Source: Anaerolineales bacterium (GTDB lineage: Bacteria; Chloroflexota; Anaerolineae; JAAEKA01). From it: a stretch of 64,000 nt of DNA. Numbering within the stretch: the first letter of the stretch is position 1; each line of letters starts with the position of its first letter. The notes below the pieces were generated by a model. That model saw only the letters and a program-made list of their open reading frames with translations. It made no database searches and had not been told where the DNA came from. Below are positions 7,522-57,874 of the stretch, piece after piece. A program made the translations under genes and the position numbers. The stretch is from assembly GCA_034432445.1 (NCBI GenBank), contig DAOUBX010000025.1, forward strand, positions 4,071-68,070, given 5' to 3'.

Positions 7522-7632
7522 GTAACTACTCAGGTGCCGGGCACTTGCAGCCGACGGGTAGACCAAATTGGCCAGGCAAACATGGTTGTAGGCGCAGATT
7601 CAAGTGCCCGGCACCTATGGCTGAGTAGTTAC
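7522..7632. mobile_element. MITE-like element copy A (111 bp): TIR GTAACTACTCAGGTGCCGGGCACTTG / CAAGTGCCCGGCACCTATGGCTGAGTAGTTAC
   Basis: Near-perfect terminal inverted repeat seen directly. Flanked by T-rich 8-mers (TTTTTTTC / TTTTCTTC) that may be a degraded target-site duplication. Intergenic. Confidence 0.75.
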
Positions 7633-7887
7633 TTTTCTTCAGAGATTAGTTGGACATTTACAAAACACGCCGGATGCCTCGGGTAACATGTGGATGATCC
7701 GTAGTCGATGGCAATTGAAGTGCTGAGGCGTAACTGCTCAGCCCGGTGAATGAAACACCTGCACTTGCATCGCAGGTGCAAGTGTTCACCGTCTGACAGC
7801 ACGACGCCTGCGCCTGCGCCGACGAAGCCTTAAGGAGCGCAGCGACTGGTGGGCCGCAGGCGAGGTGCAGGTGAGCGGCCACAGCCG

Positions 7888-8020
7888 CTGGCAACACGCT
7901 CCGCCAGGCTCTGGGGGGCCTTCGTACCGTCAGCCAGTTATGGTGGTCGTTCAGCACTTCGCTATTGTCGTGCTGGCAACACGCTCCGCCAGGCCCTGAG
8001 GGGCCTTCGTAGTGTCAGAC
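7888..8020. repeat. Two copies of an ~47 bp imperfect direct repeat (7888-7935 and 7973-8020): CTGGCAACACGCTCCGCCAGGCYCTGRGGGGCCTTCGTA..GTCAG
   Basis: Direct sequence comparison gives about 90% identity over 47 bp with about 38 bp between copies. It sits in a 650 bp non-coding gap. Confidence 0.6.
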
Positions 8021-8109
8021 AGGGATTTCCAATCCTTGGATAGGCGCACGCCTGAGCAGTTACCAACAATCATCCTATCGGCGTCTACTACTGGAATGGC
8101 AAATGGGAG

Positions 8110-8463
8110 GTGTTCAATCAGTCTTTGGCCGCCATGCCGGCCAACGCCGCCTTCAACGTCCTGGCGCCTGAACCAGGTGTCAACGTGTTTGTGCACAAAG
8201 CCACCCCAGCCAACACTTTTGGTAACTATACCTTTATCGCTAACCCCCGCGCCAACGGCAATCGGCACGCGCTGGTGTTCACAACGCTGAACTGGAACCC
8301 TGGCGGAGGCAGCGGCATTTACAACAACCGCGTGACCGGTGTGTATTACGTGAGCAACCGCTGGACCATATTCAACCAAGACACGGCAGCCACGCCGCCC
8401 AACGCGTCGTTCAACGTCTATGTCGTCGCCAACAGAGCCTATCTACCGGCAATCCAACGCTGA
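8110..8463 (+). CDS. Hypothetical small protein with an internal tandem duplication (YYxxNxWxxFNQ...PxNAxFNV twice)
   Basis: 117 aa ORF from a GTG start. The repeat unit begins upstream of any in-frame start codon (in-frame stop at 8053), so the gene may be 5'-truncated or a pseudogene. No known family recognised. Confidence 0.35.
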   Translation: MFNQSLAAMPANAAFNVLAPEPGVNVFVHKATPANTFGNYTFIANPRANGNRHALVFTTLNWNPGGGSGIYNNRVTGVYYVSNRWTIFNQDTAATPPNASFNVYVVANRAYLPAIQR

Positions 8464-56027: not shown

Positions 56028-56048
56028 GGTGAACTTCAGGGAAACGGG

Positions 56049-57719
56049 CTAAAGATAGCCCAGGCCGGCCAACTGCTGGCGAATGGCAGCTTCTTCTTCG
56101 GCCGACAAGCCGGCCACGGTGGCTGAGGGCGTGACACTGTAATCGGCGACTTGCACCGGTCGCAGCGGCGGCGCAAAGAGCTCCTGCAACACGCGGCCAT
56201 CCATGCCGGCGGCGACGGGCAAGCCCATGAGATGCAGCAGCGTGGGCGCCAGATCGACGATCGCTGCGCCCTCCAACCATTGGCCCTGGTGTACACCTGG
56301 GCCGGCGAGGACGAACAGACCGGTGGGCCGATGGGTGGCGCTGTACTCGCTGAGTTGGGCCAGCGGTAGATCGGTGACCAACGGCCCGGCGGCGTGCGAT
56401 CCGCCGGTGTAGGCGTCGTTCATCTCGACCAGGATATCAGGGATCTCGTCCAGGTGCGGGCCGTCGAACAGCTCTTCACGACGAATGGCTCGCCTGACGA
56501 TGGCGGCGCCGGTCTCCGGGTCGCGCAGGTCGGCCAACGCGGCCAAGATCGCGTCCCGCACCTCTTCGTAGGCCGCGCCCGGTGGCACGACGCCGTGTGC
56601 CTGCCGGCCTTGCAGGTTGACGATGATGCCTTCCACTGTGGGAAAGACGTTGAGACGGTACGCTTGGGTCCGCGTCCAATCGATGGCGTCCAAGTTTTGA
56701 TGACGGGCGAAGAGCGCAACGCGCGCCTCAGCGGGGAGCCGCGCGCGCAGGCGCTGCCGCCACTGCGTGGGCAGCCGCCGCCGCACCTGCGAGATGGCGC
56801 GGTTGGCCAGGCTGGGGTGTGATCGCGCGCCGGGCCGCAGAGCTAGCAGCCCTTGCGCGGCCAGCCAGGCGTTCAGGTGCACCTGCCGGTGGGGATAGGG
56901 CCCCATGCCGTGGTCCGACATCACCAACACAGCCGTCTCCGCCAGCGGTAGCACAGCCAACAAGCGGCCGATCTCGGCGTCCGCCACCTCGTACTGGTGG
57001 TTGATCACCTCGCCGAACTCCCGTGCGCCGGCAGCGTCGTAGGCGGGAAACGCAGGGTCTGTGTACTTCCAATACAGGTGAGGGATGTTGTCGGTGCTGT
57101 TCCACACCACCAACGCCAGATCATAGGGCTCGGCGGCCAGAGCCTCCAGCAAGATGTCGGTGTACTTGCGCACCCAGTAGTCGGAGGCCTCGACCGTCTT
57201 GGCTGGCGACAGCGAGAAGTTGAAATTGTCAGGCATGGCATCCCAGCGGCCAAGCCGAGCCGCCATCTCCGGCGGCCAGACGTGCGCCGTGGGGCCAAAA
57301 GGCCGAGGAAAGCCGCTGACCAGGAAGCCGTTGACCGGAAAAGGCGGATAGGTCATCGGAATGCCCACGGCAGCCACGCGGCGTCCGCGGTGCCCGGCAA
57401 ACTCCAGAAAGCTGCGGCCGACATAGTCACGGCTGGCGGCGAACTCATCGCGATAGGCGCCGTACTGGCGCAAATCCATCTTGCGGAACTGGTACACGCC
57501 ATGACGGCCGGGATTTTGCCCCGTGAGGAAGGTTACCCAGGCTGCGGCCGAGATAGGCGGCACGGTCGACGCCAGCGGACCGGCGACGCCGGCCGCCATC
57601 AACCGCGCCAAATGCGGCATGCGCCCGGCCTGCAACAGCGGGCGAGCAATGTCCCAAGTAGCGCCGTCGAGACCGATAACCACCACACGGGGGGACGACT
57701 GATCTTGCGATACACCCAT
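56049..57719 (-). CDS. Alkaline phosphatase-family protein, type I phosphodiesterase / nucleotide pyrophosphatase-like (PF01663)
   Basis: VVVIGLDGATWD ... ASTVPPISAAAWVTFLTGQNPGRHGV, the typical Thr-nucleophile region. Confidence 0.75.
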   Translation of the reverse strand: MGVSQDQSSPRVVVIGLDGATWDIARPLLQAGRMPHLARLMAAGVAGPLASTVPPISAAAWVTFLTGQNPGRHGVYQFRKMDLRQYGAYRDEFAASRDYVGRSFLEFAGHRGRRVAAVGIPMTYPPFPVNGFLVSGFPRPFGPTAHVWPPEMAARLGRWDAMPDNFNFSLSPAKTVEASDYWVRKYTDILLEALAAEPYDLALVVWNSTDNIPHLYWKYTDPAFPAYDAAGAREFGEVINHQYEVADAEIGRLLAVLPLAETAVLVMSDHGMGPYPHRQVHLNAWLAAQGLLALRPGARSHPSLANRAISQVRRRLPTQWRQRLRARLPAEARVALFARHQNLDAIDWTRTQAYRLNVFPTVEGIIVNLQGRQAHGVVPPGAAYEEVRDAILAALADLRDPETGAAIVRRAIRREELFDGPHLDEIPDILVEMNDAYTGGSHAAGPLVTDLPLAQLSEYSATHRPTGLFVLAGPGVHQGQWLEGAAIVDLAPTLLHLMGLPVAAGMDGRVLQELFAPPLRPVQVADYSVTPSATVAGLSAEEEAAIRQQLAGLGYL

Positions 57720-57766
57720 AGCGGCCGGATTGTACCACGTCCAACAGGTTGTGCCAAAAGCGCGCT

Positions 57767-57874
57767 AACTGCTCAGGTGCCGGGCATTTGTAGGCGATTT
57801 GCGACCTAGGTTGGCTTCACAGACACGTTTGCAAACCAGAACCAAATGCCCGGCACCTATGGCTGAGTAGTTAC
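57767..57874. mobile_element. MITE-like element copy F (108 bp) flanked by a perfect 10-bp direct repeat AAAGCGCGCT
   Basis: TIR AACTGCTCAGGTGCCGGGCATTTG / CAAATGCCCGGCACCTATGGCTGAGTAGTTAC. Direct repeat at 57757-57766 and 57875-57884. Internal sequence differs from copies A, B and C. Confidence 0.85.

What the first reader, a model, noticed from the sequence alone, without database searches (positions are those of the whole stretch)
7522..57874. Family of ~110-bp miniature inverted-repeat elements with conserved TIRs, most intact copies showing 8-10 bp target-site duplications, 8 copies in 64 kb
Four intact copies (7522-7632, 19368-19477, 41511-41621, 57767-57874) and four degenerate ones (about 11660, 43030, 49668, 50978) share a terminal inverted repeat of about 30 bp, (G)TAACTAYTCAG-[0-6 nt]-GGTGCCGGGCAYTTG.

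Three intact copies are bracketed by clean direct repeats from flanking DNA: CAGTCCAGG (9 bp), AACGTGCC (8 bp) and AAAGCGCGCT (10 bp). That is the hallmark of transposition. Copy A's flanks are only T-rich 8-mers matching at 7 of 8 positions.

The roughly 55-bp cores differ between copies. Only B and C share a core. So the family is defined by its ends, as in non-autonomous MITEs mobilised in trans.

All copies are intergenic. Several sit exactly at gene junctions inside the polysaccharide operon (after gmhB, before gmhA, between uxs and GT4, between GT4 and PGT). Each element can fold into a long hairpin, so insertions could act as terminators, attenuators or RNA-stability elements inside operons.

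The density of about one copy per 8 kb suggests recent or ongoing activity. No matching transposase is present in the window.
Basis: seen in the sequence. Interest (0 to 1): 0.8.

Follow-up and report, generated by a model that had tools for sequence, protein, structure and literature searches.

The report
IS66-derived miniature transposons in Chloroflexota
The repeats are real: about 111-bp gene-less miniature transposons (MITEs) that duplicate exactly 8 bp on insertion and whose tips match insertion sequences of the IS66 family (ISBst12 group); they are common in uncultured Chloroflexota, which makes this a new example of a familiar kind of selfish DNA.

Summary
The window holds four intact elements of 110-111 bp and four degenerate ones at the reported places. 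I also found a further 73-nt remnant and a 334-bp cousin with the same tips.

- **Target-site duplication.** It is exactly 8 bp. Of 43 well-formed copies (window, four Chloroflexota MAGs, metagenome contigs), 30 are perfect and 8 match at 7 of 8 positions. Control 8-mers match at about 2 of 8.
- **Polarity.** 42 of 43 copies have one arm without and one arm with a 6-nt insert. B and C are inverted relative to A and D.
- **Cores.** Once oriented, the cores are homologous.
- **Source family.** The terminal 12-mer GTAACTRYTCAG plus the 8-bp duplication match single-ORF IS66-family (ISBst12-group) insertion sequences: the experimentally active ISDge4, a Geobacillus plasmid element, and three metagenomic elements.
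- **Relic of the gene end.** The long arm keeps the transposase's last codons and stop (…QVPGTYG*, GGC TGA inside the right end).
- **Mobility.** Related genomes lack the insertions at orthologous spacers.
- **Not found.** No cognate transposase was found. No Rfam family, U-tract or conserved core structure supports a terminator role.

Verdict: a previously undescribed member of a known kind (bacterial MITE). Interest is moderate.

The parts
7522..7632 (+). Intact MITE copy A (111 bp). The IRL-type short arm is at the left and the IRR-type long arm at the right. Flanking 8-mers are TTTTTTTC/TTTTCTTC (7 of 8). It lies 65 bp upstream of the amidohydrolase start codon.
   Evidence: 117.9 bits; fold -55.3 kcal/mol, z -5.8
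19368..19478 (-). Intact MITE copy B (111 bp) with TSD AGTCCAGG. It lies between the stop of the Baseplate_J-like ORF and the start of the RuvX gene.
   Evidence: 112.3 bits
41511..41621 (-). Intact MITE copy C (111 bp; 95-96% identical to B) with TSD AACGTGCC. It lies between the convergent enolase and HAD (gmhB-like) genes.
   Evidence: 113.4 bits
57765..57874 (+). Intact MITE copy D (110 bp) with TSD AAAGCGCG. It lies in the divergent spacer between the phosphodiesterase gene and the DUF7507 surface-protein gene, directly upstream of a promoter-like site.
   Evidence: 105.3 bits
50967..51076 (-). Degenerate copy. One arm is intact and there is no recognisable TSD. It lies between the Bac_transf stop and the GT4 start.
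   Evidence: 40.9 bits, E 1e-8
11664..11768 (-). Degenerate copy of the B/C-like subfamily (61% identity to B). It lies in the divergent spacer between the HSP20 and FTCD_C genes.
   Evidence: 36 bits, E 2e-7
42986..43066 (+). Strongly degenerate copy between the stop of the sugar-transferase (PGT) gene and the start of the SIS (gmhA-like) gene. It overlaps the last codons of the PGT ORF.
   Evidence: 17.9 bits, E 0.016
49668..49743 (+). Partial copy with an intact short arm (AACTGCTCAGGTGCCGGGCACTTG) and a decayed remainder. It lies between the GT4 stop and the epimerase start.
   Evidence: 16.3 bits, E 0.042
5960..6032 (-). It has the tip GCAACTACTCAG and a GTGCCGGGAG inner relic, and abuts the amidohydrolase stop codon. 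It is absent from the orthologous spacer of a relative whose EF-G is 92% identical.
7730..8063 (-). A 334-bp non-coding relative with perfect GTAACTGCTCAG termini (CTCAGCC at the left, CTCAGG at the right). It lacks the GGTGCCGGGCAC motif and has no TSD. Its IRR-type end reads …HSPG*, like the 494-aa ISBst12-group transposases.
   Evidence: 13.9 bits for one end

Best explanation
These are miniature inverted-repeat transposable elements derived from, and moved in trans by, a single-ORF IS66-family insertion sequence of the ISBst12 group.

**Anatomy.** Each element is the two ends of such an IS with the transposase gene deleted.
- The short arm, GTAACTRYTCA|GGTGCCGGGCACTTG, corresponds to the left end (IRL).
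- The long arm, CAAGTGCCCGGCACC-tatggc-TGAGTAGTTAC, corresponds to the right end (IRR). It still carries the last codons and stop of the lost transposase gene (…AQIQVPGTYG*).

**Proposed mechanism.** A DDE transposase (DDE_Tnp_IS66 with zf-IS66 and DUF6444 N-terminal domains), encoded elsewhere in the genome or formerly present, binds the arms. The 12-bp tip is the family-wide cleavage and recognition sequence. The inner palindrome GTGCC(S)GGCAC is probably the lineage-specific binding site. The transposase inserts the element at AT-rich, mostly intergenic targets with cuts staggered by 8 bp, and repair of these gives the 8-bp duplication.

**Shown versus inferred.**
- Shown: the anatomy, the fixed 8-bp duplication, dispersal to unrelated loci in several Chloroflexota genomes, absence at orthologous sites in relatives, identity of the tips to bona fide ISBst12-group ISs, and the coding relic.
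- Inferred: trans-mobilisation, the role of the inner palindrome, and whether a working transposase still exists in this genome.
- Any effect on the host (a 26-bp stem with a 6-nt bulge in transcripts of operons) would be a by-product. It was not tested.
For: **Reality and copy number.**

**Duplication and arm asymmetry.** Of 43 copies, 30 have a perfect 8-bp TSD and 8 match at 7 of 8. Control 8-mers 12 nt further out match at 0-5 positions (mode 1-2). 42 of 43 copies show the 11/17-nt arm asymmetry.

**Distribution.**
- 18 metagenome contigs.
- Functional-looking short forms of about 70-76 bp, with TSDs.
- The window host is Chloroflexota. EF-G is 72% identical to an Anaerolinea sp. MAG and 70% to a Caldilineales MAG.

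**Presence/absence in relatives.**
- L023 carries a copy where the orthologous spacer of L030 has none.
- In the relative L063, the Lon-to-amidohydrolase spacer is 78 bp, against 1078 bp in the window, where it holds copy A.
- The 5960-6032 remnant is missing in L063 and L064.
- Short-read assemblies of the same strain break inside copies A and D.

**Link to the IS66 family, ISBst12 group.**
- ISDge4 transposes experimentally. Its TIRs are GTGACTACTCAGCA and GTAACTGCTCAGCA, its 8-bp DR is CCTCGATG, and it has a single transposase ORF of 448-449 aa (PMC12898284, PMC8369957).
- The Geobacillus kaustophilus pHTA426 element (L052 14107-15741) has ends GTATCTATTCAGCCC and GTAACTATTCAGCCC and TSD GACGAGTT. 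Its ORF hits DDE_Tnp_IS66, zf-IS66 and DUF6444.
- Three metagenomic 494-aa transposases (P0113, P0093, P0053) lie between GT(A/T)ACTGCTCAG tips. Two have IRL CTCAGG and IRR CTCAGCC, and in all three the stop codon lies inside the IRR (GGC TGA GCA GT(A/T) AC).
- The MITE long arm has the same GGC TGA G(T/C)A GTT AC. Read in frame, it gives …AQ(I/R)QVPGTYG* in most copies, resembling C-termini such as …AQAASPG* and …AQPTLAG*.

**Target preference.** Reconstructed empty sites have 48% GC against 64% overall, with A/T-rich positions at -2/-1 and +9/+10 around the 8 bp.
Against: - No full-length IS carrying the inner motif GGTGCCGGGCAC, or a transposase ending in QVPGTYG, was found. It is absent from the window, from about 300 kb of related loci (tblastn), among the 120 best homologues of an ISBst12-group transposase, and in a peptide-directed search.
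- Apart from that motif, similarity to reference ISs is confined to the outer 12-15 bp and the stop-codon relic.
- Flanks of the metagenomic reference ISs show no TSD. This is probably because of chimeric assembly of multicopy elements.
- Copies within the window are only 68-74% identical, apart from B/C, so current activity in this genome is not shown.
- The statement that GTAA ends with 8-9-bp repeats are diagnostic of IS66 among IS families rests on my memory of the ISfinder summary table, plus the examples cited above.
Confidence: 0.85

Rival explanations
1. It is a MITE, but it is mobilised by a transposase of a different family that also makes 8-bp duplications (for example IS1595, ISL3, IS256 or IS6). 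On this view the match of the 12-bp tip to ISBst12-group elements is coincidental.
For: The cognate autonomous element was not found. The inner 15 bp of the arms has no counterpart in the five reference ISs.
Against: - The tip is identical over 12-15 nt to five independent ISBst12-group elements from three or more phyla or environments.
- The IRL/IRR distinction (CTCAGG versus CTCAGCC) is shared.
- The GGC-TGA stop relic is shared.
- As I recall the ISfinder table, the other families that make 8-bp duplications start with GG… rather than GTAA.
Confidence: 0.06
2. It is a fossil family. The elements were spread by an ISBst12-group transposase that this genome has since lost, so the copies are now immobile relics.
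For: - No transposase occurs in the 64 kb window or in related loci.
- Five of nine window copies are degenerate.
- Intact copies other than B/C are only 68-74% identical.
Against: - Three of the four intact copies have perfect TSDs and the fourth matches at 7 of 8 positions, despite the divergence between copies. This implies different source subfamilies rather than decay in place.
- B and C are 95% identical.
- Copies in MAG CAZVGR01 are identical or nearly so (L016, L020, L025).
- Only a small part of the genome could be inspected.
Confidence: 0.25
3. It is a REP/BIME-like structural palindrome spread by a RAYT (IS200/IS605-like tyrosine transposase) or by recombination, not a DDE-type insertion.
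For: The elements are short, intergenic, hairpin-forming and high-density.
Against: - A fixed 8-bp target duplication occurs in 38 of 43 copies. REPs make none.
- There is no GTAG or CGTC head.
- The arms are 26-32 bp with a defined polarity.
- The tips match a DDE IS family.
Confidence: 0.02
4. It is a host-selected RNA or DNA regulatory hairpin (terminator, attenuator, mRNA-stability element or protein-binding site) whose repetition reflects function rather than mobility.
For: - It forms a very stable hairpin (-47 to -56 kcal/mol, z -3 to -8).
- Several copies sit at gene junctions inside a polysaccharide gene cluster.
- The inner palindrome GTGCC(S)GGCAC is almost invariant and recurs in a second repeat family.
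Against: - No Rfam match.
- No U-tract or terminator-like hit at the elements.
- No conserved structure in the core.
- Both orientations occur equally (21 versus 21).
- Positions are not conserved in relatives.
- The operon-internal copies are the degenerate ones, which argues against selection for the hairpin.
Confidence: 0.05

Closest known systems
ISBst12-group insertion sequences of the IS66 family (e.g. ISDge4 of Deinococcus geothermalis; the IS66-like element of Geobacillus kaustophilus pHTA426)
   Same: - The terminal sequence is the same: GTAACTRYTCAG(G/CC).
- Both make 8-bp target duplications.
- The left and right ends differ.
- The right end overlaps the last Gly codon and the TGA stop of the transposase.
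   Different: - The elements here are 70-118 bp and have no ORF.
- They carry an inner 15-bp motif (GGTGCCGGGCACTTG) in both arms that none of the five reference ISs has.
- The matching autonomous element is unknown.
Correia elements (NEMIS) of Neisseria
   Same: - They are MITEs of about 100-150 bp with about 26-bp TIRs, present at roughly one copy per 7-10 kb.
- They are mostly intergenic and co-transcribed as long hairpins.
- No active parent is known in the host.
   Different: - Correia elements duplicate TA, carry promoter, IHF and RNase III features, and belong to a different transposase superfamily.
- The elements here duplicate 8 bp and have IS66-type tips.
- These Correia features are from my own knowledge and were not checked with the tools.
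MITEPsy1 of Pseudomonas syringae (PMC3189936)
   Same: It is a 100-nt bacterial MITE whose TIRs match a resident IS. It has a fixed-length duplication and is thought to be mobilised in trans.
   Different: MITEPsy1 is IS5-related, has a 4-nt duplication and few copies (six), and its transposition was shown experimentally. For the elements here, mobility is inferred only from sequence.
REP/BIME elements with RAYT transposases
   Same: They are short, abundant, intergenic palindromes.
   Different: REPs are 20-40 bp, have GTAG or CGTC heads, make no target duplication, and use a tyrosine HUH enzyme. None of these features applies here.

Membership tests
Bacterial MITE (non-autonomous DDE-transposon derivative) | Small size and no coding capacity | tested here: met
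   Elements are 70-118 bp. The frame that ends in the TGA relic contains stop codons upstream of the last roughly 10 codons in 19 of 30 copies, including all four window copies; other frames were not tabulated.
Bacterial MITE (non-autonomous DDE-transposon derivative) | Terminal inverted repeats | tested here: met
   The arms pair over 26 bp, interrupted by a 6-nt bulge, in all 20 aligned copies.
Bacterial MITE (non-autonomous DDE-transposon derivative) | Target-site duplication of fixed length, different at each locus | tested here: met
   The duplication is 8 bp. Of 43 copies, 30 are perfect and 8 match at 7 of 8; control 8-mers match at about 2 of 8.
Bacterial MITE (non-autonomous DDE-transposon derivative) | Many copies at unrelated loci, and presence/absence between related genomes | tested here: met
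   - Nine copies in the window.
- 47 loci elsewhere.
- Orthologous spacers without the element.
- No base-precise empty site was obtained, because the compared genomes are 75-92% identical.
Bacterial MITE (non-autonomous DDE-transposon derivative) | TIRs shared with an autonomous IS that supplies the transposase | tested here: inconclusive
   The outer 12-15 bp and the stop-codon relic are shared with five ISBst12-group ISs from other organisms. A cognate IS with the full arms was not found.
Bacterial MITE (non-autonomous DDE-transposon derivative) | Observed transposition | not testable with these tools
   This needs a trap assay or population or time-series sequencing.
IS66 family, ISBst12 group (as a derivative) | Ends begin with GTAA, and direct repeats are 8-9 bp | tested here: met
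   Tips are GTAAC/GTTAC in most copies and the TSD is 8 bp. That these features define the family is from memory of ISfinder.
IS66 family, ISBst12 group (as a derivative) | Terminal sequence matches bona fide members | tested here: met
   The MITE tip GTAACTRYTCAG matches:
- ISDge4: GTAACTGCTCAGCA.
- pHTA426 element: GTAACTATTCAGCCC.
- P0113, P0093 and P0053 elements: GT(A/T)ACTGCTCAG(G/CC).

IS66 family, ISBst12 group (as a derivative) | Encodes a DDE_Tnp_IS66 transposase | tested here: not met
   There is no ORF in the elements, and no IS66 homologue in the window or loci. The elements are therefore derivatives, not members in the autonomous sense.
REP/BIME | A 20-40-bp palindrome with a GTAG or CGTC head and no target duplication | tested here: not met
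   The arms start with GTAAC and an 8-bp duplication is present.
REP/BIME | Associated RAYT gene | not tested
   The window's ORFs were not all scanned. None of the 20 flanking proteins scanned is a Y1 transposase.
Intrinsic terminator or known structured RNA | A hairpin followed by a U-tract, or a match to a curated RNA family | tested here: not met
   No terminator-like site was found in the elements. No Rfam hit was found at gathering threshold or at E<=1.

The most novel reading that the evidence does not exclude
The almost invariant inner palindrome GTGCC(S)GGCAC might be more than a binding site for one transposase. It sits at a fixed but unequal distance from the two tips. It also recurs in a second, differently tipped 102-bp repeat family in the same MAGs. 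It could be a module recognised by a host or shared factor, for example a nucleoid or regulatory protein, or a DNA-binding domain common to several transposases. If so, these elements would persist and spread without a cognate autonomous partner, cross-mobilised through the generic 12-bp ISBst12 tip. Alternatively, they may have been partly co-opted as operon-internal hairpins in Chloroflexota.
Probability: 0.1. Interest if true: 0.6.

Novelty: new member of a known kind. Interest (0 to 1): 0.4.

Why it matters
- **Assembly and binning.** The family explains contig breaks in short-read assemblies of these uncultured Chloroflexota: contigs of the same strain end inside copies A and D. It also gives a compact sequence signature (two arms plus an 8-bp duplication) for masking repeats, scaffolding and tracking strains.
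- **New MITE source.** It appears to be an undescribed case of MITEs derived from the poorly studied ISBst12 group of the IS66 family. I found no such case in the searchable literature.
- **Experimental handle.** It provides natural minimal substrates of about 70 bp and a clear left/right end asymmetry. These could be used to study how these transposases recognise their ends.
- **Gene expression.** Insertions upstream of genes and inside a polysaccharide cluster are candidates for expression effects. None has been shown.

Tried and rejected
**Candidate full-length elements.**
- Widely spaced arms in L027 (4047/7395) turned out to be a half copy plus a member of a second family, with a histidine-kinase gene between them.
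- L015 and L035 have solo arms with no transposase nearby.

**Searches that returned nothing.**
- Viral contigs.
- Plasmid database, blastn.
- Literature search for the arm sequences.

**Capped scans.** The metagenome scan gave 18 loci, all MITE-sized.

**Attempts to reach a cognate transposase.**
- Deinococcus geothermalis megaplasmid records are not in the plasmid collection.
- tblastn with an ISBst12-group transposase against all loci and the window found nothing.
- A 41-aa query ending in the relic peptide AQIQVPGTYG returned only 10 short fragments, none with that C-terminus.
- Three high-GC ISBst12-group ISs (P0113, P0093, P0053) share the tip but not the inner motif, so none is the parent.

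**Other negative results.**
- Exact-protein look-ups for enolase and RuvX failed. This may reflect an uncertain start codon or absence from the collection.
- RNAalifold found no conserved core structure. The compensatory C:G to U:A change in the arms (7 of 20 copies) is as expected for subfamily-specific TIRs and is not evidence for an RNA.

**Claims rejected.** TSDs of 9 and 10 bp, a variable spacer, and unrelated cores.

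
Full report
**1. The observation**

The four intact elements are in the sequence as described: A 7522-7632, B 19368-19478, C 41511-41621 and D 57765-57874.

The repeats are far beyond chance.
- The inner motif GGTGCCGGGCAYTT has 17 matches at up to 2 mismatches, against 1.77 expected and a maximum of 5 in 100 shuffles. Thirteen of these lie in the elements.
- The terminal 12-mer GTWACTRYTCAG has 13 matches at up to 1 mismatch, against 0.72 expected.

I built a covariance model from 20 oriented copies and ran it over the window without filters.
- The four intact copies score 105-118 bits.
- Each intact copy scores only 35-50 bits on the opposite strand, so the element has polarity.

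No Rfam family matches, either at gathering thresholds over the whole window or at E<=1 around copy A.

**2. Anatomy, and three corrections**

I extracted every pair of inner motifs lying 20-200 nt apart, from the window and from loci fetched elsewhere. I then searched for the best terminal motif on each side.

- **Arm asymmetry.** In 42 of 43 well-formed copies, one arm has 11 nt outside the inner motif (GTAACTRYTCA|GGTGCC…). The other arm has 17 nt (GTAACTRYTCAGCCNTA|GGTGCC…). A and D lie in one orientation, B and C in the other.
- **Duplication length.** The 8 nt immediately outside the tips are identical in 30 of 43 copies and differ at one position in 8 more. Control 8-mers taken 12 nt further out match at 0-5 positions, mostly 1-2. 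The window values are B AGTCCAGG, C AACGTGCC, D AAAGCGCG and A TTTTTTTC/TTTTCTTC.
- **Homologous cores.** After orienting, the cores align throughout, with mean column identity 73%. Whole-element identities are A-D 74%, A-B/C 68-69% and B-C 95%. The cores are homologous rather than unrelated.
- **Short forms.** Variants of about 70-76 bp exist, consisting of the two arms plus about 15 nt. They carry perfect duplications, so little more than the arms is needed.

As a single strand, each element folds into a 26-bp stem interrupted by the 6-nt bulge (-47 to -56 kcal/mol; z -3 to -8). RNAalifold finds no conserved structure in the core.

**3. Distribution and host**

All are in four Chloroflexota MAGs: Anaerolinea sp. 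CH3, Anaerolineae MFD10570, an uncultured Anaerolinea and Caldilineales DTUCFX11.
- The metagenome scan gave 18 more contigs.
- Nothing was found in viral contigs or plasmids, and the arm sequences occur in no paper of the searchable library.
- The window's EF-G is identical to a protein on an NCBI contig of 70,954 bp. Its nearest named relatives are MAG proteins labelled Anaerolinea sp. (72%), Chloroflexota (71%) and Caldilineales (70%). The host is therefore an uncultured Chloroflexota bacterium.
- Logan short-read contigs of the same strain (99.9-100% identical) end inside copies A and D. This is expected for a dispersed repeat.

**4. Evidence of mobility beyond the duplications**

- L023 (MAG CH3) carries a 73-bp copy with TSD AAATAGCC in a spacer. 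The orthologous spacer in L030, with flanks 75-81% identical, is about 30 bp long and has no copy.
- In contigs of a relative whose EF-G is 92% identical (L063, L064), the spacer between Lon and the amidohydrolase gene is 78 bp. In the window it is 1078 bp and holds copy A plus a 334-bp relative.
- In the spacer between the EF-G and amidohydrolase genes, the window has a 73-nt remnant (5960-6032; tip GCAACTACTCAG) that L063 and L064 lack. Those contigs have a different remnant that the window lacks.
- Upstream of one orthologous gene, L003 and L004 carry copies of different subfamilies at different distances.

These comparisons are between genomes too diverged for base-precise empty sites.

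The intact window copies differ by 26-32% from one another, yet B, C and D have perfect duplications and A's match at 7 of 8 positions. This divergence therefore reflects different source subfamilies rather than decay in place. The arms are kept similar because only transposable copies propagate. This last step is inference.

**5. Which transposase family**

From memory of the ISfinder summary, ends starting with GTAA combined with 8-9-bp direct repeats are the signature of the IS66 family. The tools gave direct comparisons.

- **ISDge4** of Deinococcus geothermalis is an IS66-family element of the ISBst12 group with a single ORF of 448-449 aa. It transposes experimentally, makes the 8-bp repeat CCTCGATG, and has TIRs GTGACTACTCAGCA and GTAACTGCTCAGCA (PMC12898284, PMC8369957: 1469 bp, DR 8).
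- **The pHTA426 element** of Geobacillus kaustophilus (L052 14107-15741, 1635 bp) is annotated as IS66-like. Its ends are GTATCTATTCAGCCC and GTAACTATTCAGCCC, and it is flanked by GACGAGTT on both sides. Its ORF matches DDE_Tnp_IS66 (E 2e-64), zf-IS66 and DUF6444.
- **Three metagenomic homologues** of that transposase are 494 aa long and come from DNA with 57-63% GC. They lie between GT(A/T)ACTGCTCAG tips.
  - In P0113 and P0053 the left end continues CTCAGG and the right end CTCAGCC.
  - In all three the gene's last Gly codon and stop lie inside the right end (…GGC TGA GCA GT(A/T) AC).

The MITE matches all of this.
- The tip GTAACTRYTCAG is the same.
- The short arm is CTCAGG (IRL-type) and the long arm is CTCAGCC (IRR-type).
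- The long arm ends …GGC TGA G(T/C)A GTT AC.
- Translated in that frame, most copies read …AQ(I/R)QVPGTYG*, with no open frame further upstream. The reference transposases end in …AQAASPG*, …AQPTLAG* and …AQPAPAG*.

The element is therefore best read as IRL plus IRR of an ISBst12-group IS, with a relic of the gene's 3' end.

**6. What was not found**

- No IS66-family ORF is present in the window or in any fetched locus (tblastn).
- None of the 120 best homologues ends in QVPGTYG.
- A peptide-directed search returned only short fragments.
- The three ISs inspected lack the inner GGTGCCGGGCAC motif.

The cognate autonomous element is unknown. Whether the family is still active in this genome is open. 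I put the fossil alternative at about 0.25. MAG CAZVGR01 has identical or near-identical copies at different loci with perfect duplications (L016, L020, L025). This points to recent activity at least in that genome.

**7. Targets and possible effects**

Reconstructed empty sites (34 non-redundant) are AT-rich: 48% GC in the 8 bp and the 20 nt on each side, against 64% for the loci as a whole. The A/T preference is symmetric, at -2/-1 and +9/+10 (GC 0.15-0.26).

All nine window copies are intergenic or clip only the last codons of an ORF.
- A lies upstream of an amidohydrolase gene.
- D lies in a divergent spacer, directly next to a promoter-like site.
- B lies between a Baseplate_J-like ORF and the RuvX gene.
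- C lies between the convergent enolase and HAD genes.
- Three degenerate copies lie at junctions of a polysaccharide cluster: PGT/SIS, GT4/epimerase and Bac_transf/GT4.

The simple scans find no terminator-like or promoter-like site within any element, and no U-tract follows the hairpin in the direction of the flanking genes. The two orientations are equally frequent (21 versus 21). The copies inside the operon are the decayed ones. The terminator/attenuator idea is therefore unsupported. A co-transcribed 26-bp stem could still affect RNA processing, but this cannot be tested here.

**8. Comparison and verdict**

In behaviour, the family resembles Correia elements, MITEPsy1 and other bacterial MITEs. 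By origin, it belongs with the ISBst12 group of IS66 as a non-autonomous derivative. It fails the REP/BIME tests because it makes a duplication and lacks a GTAG or CGTC head. It also fails the tests for a known RNA family.

I found no published description of this family, nor of ISBst12-derived MITEs, in the library searched. That library is incomplete.

Novelty: a new member of a known kind. Interest is moderate (0.4).
- It is a clean, well-supported family in an under-studied phylum.
- It has practical consequences for assembly.
- Its minimal substrates and end asymmetry are useful for studying a poorly characterised transposase group.
- It does not challenge current understanding.

Noticed in passing
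window 7730-8063: A 334-bp non-coding element with perfect GTAACTGCTCAG termini (CTCAGCC at one end, CTCAGG at the other). It lacks the GGTGCCGGGCAC motif and has no target duplication. Its IRR-type end reads …HSPG*, like the 494-aa ISBst12-group transposases. It looks like a second MITE-like derivative of the same IS group. It appears to truncate the ORF 7951-8379, which has no Pfam hit.
   Followed up: partly
window 7887-7937 and 7972-8022; L007 5976-6030; L028 15-68; L047 324-467: A 51-nt direct repeat (GCTGGCAACACGCTCCGCCAGGC.CTG.GGGGCCTTCGTA…) lies inside the 334-bp element. It has 83-91% matches in loci from three other Chloroflexota sources. It may be another small dispersed repeat.
   Followed up: partly
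L027 7324-7425; L030 7633-7734; also L005 ~3710, L013 ~6010, L025 ~5250, L004/L050 upstream region: A second repeat family of about 102 bp has ends GTAAACAAAGT…ACTTTGTTTAC and the same inner palindrome with the central base flipped (GTGCCCGGCAC). Its two arms differ in length by 5 nt. Its flanks are themselves inverted (TTAGTACAC…GTGTACTTAG), so the true ends lie further out. No TSD was established.
   Followed up: partly
L005 172-241, L008 4166-4238, L012 1858-1929, L018 3612-3685, L022 1877-1946, L023 2684-2756, L036, L043, L045: Short variants of the same MITE, about 70-76 bp (two arms plus about 15 nt). Six of the nine have perfect 8-bp duplications, two match at 7 of 8 (L005, L036), and L008 does not match in register. 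This defines a minimal mobilisable unit.
   Followed up: yes
L001/L002 (= window 7549 downwards) and L032/L033 (= window 57795 downwards): Short-read (Logan) contigs of the same strain end inside MITE copies A and D. The repeat fragments the assemblies of this organism.
   Followed up: yes
34 reconstructed insertion sites (window and loci): The target preference is AT-rich: 48% GC against 64% overall. Positions -2/-1 and +9/+10 around the 8-bp duplication are symmetrically A/T-rich.
   Followed up: yes
window 57729-57757 (- strand): A promoter-like site (TTGGCA-17-TACAAT with an upstream TG) overlaps the left TSD copy of MITE D by one base. It lies about 10 nt upstream of the phosphodiesterase start codon, which suggests a leaderless or very short-leader transcript.
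   Followed up: no
window 57900-60458: A large ORF with DUF7507, SdrD_B and Ig-like domains. It contains three 330-bp tandem repeats (58547-59530) and a Thr/Pro-rich tract with a 12/18-nt period (60249-60418).
   Followed up: no
window 19494-24167: A Baseplate_J-like ORF (19494-21215) is followed by a 982-aa ORF on the same strand. This may be part of a phage-tail-like or contractile-injection cluster next to MITE B.
   Followed up: no
L055 671-760, L056 515-600, L060 91-180: The metagenomic IS encoding P0113 shows a tandem duplication of its left end (GTTACTGCTCAGGCACACCAGGAAGTTAATCATTCCCTGGTG, twice) in three contigs. This is either an assembly artefact or a solo-end insertion. The left end contains its own palindrome (CACCAGGAA…TTCCCTGGTG) next to the tip, at the position of the MITE's GTGCCGGGCAC.
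   Followed up: no
window 372-383, 12143-12154, 58746-58757: Three further one-mismatch matches to the terminal 12-mer lie inside long ORFs, with no other element features. They are probably chance matches or very old relics.
   Followed up: no
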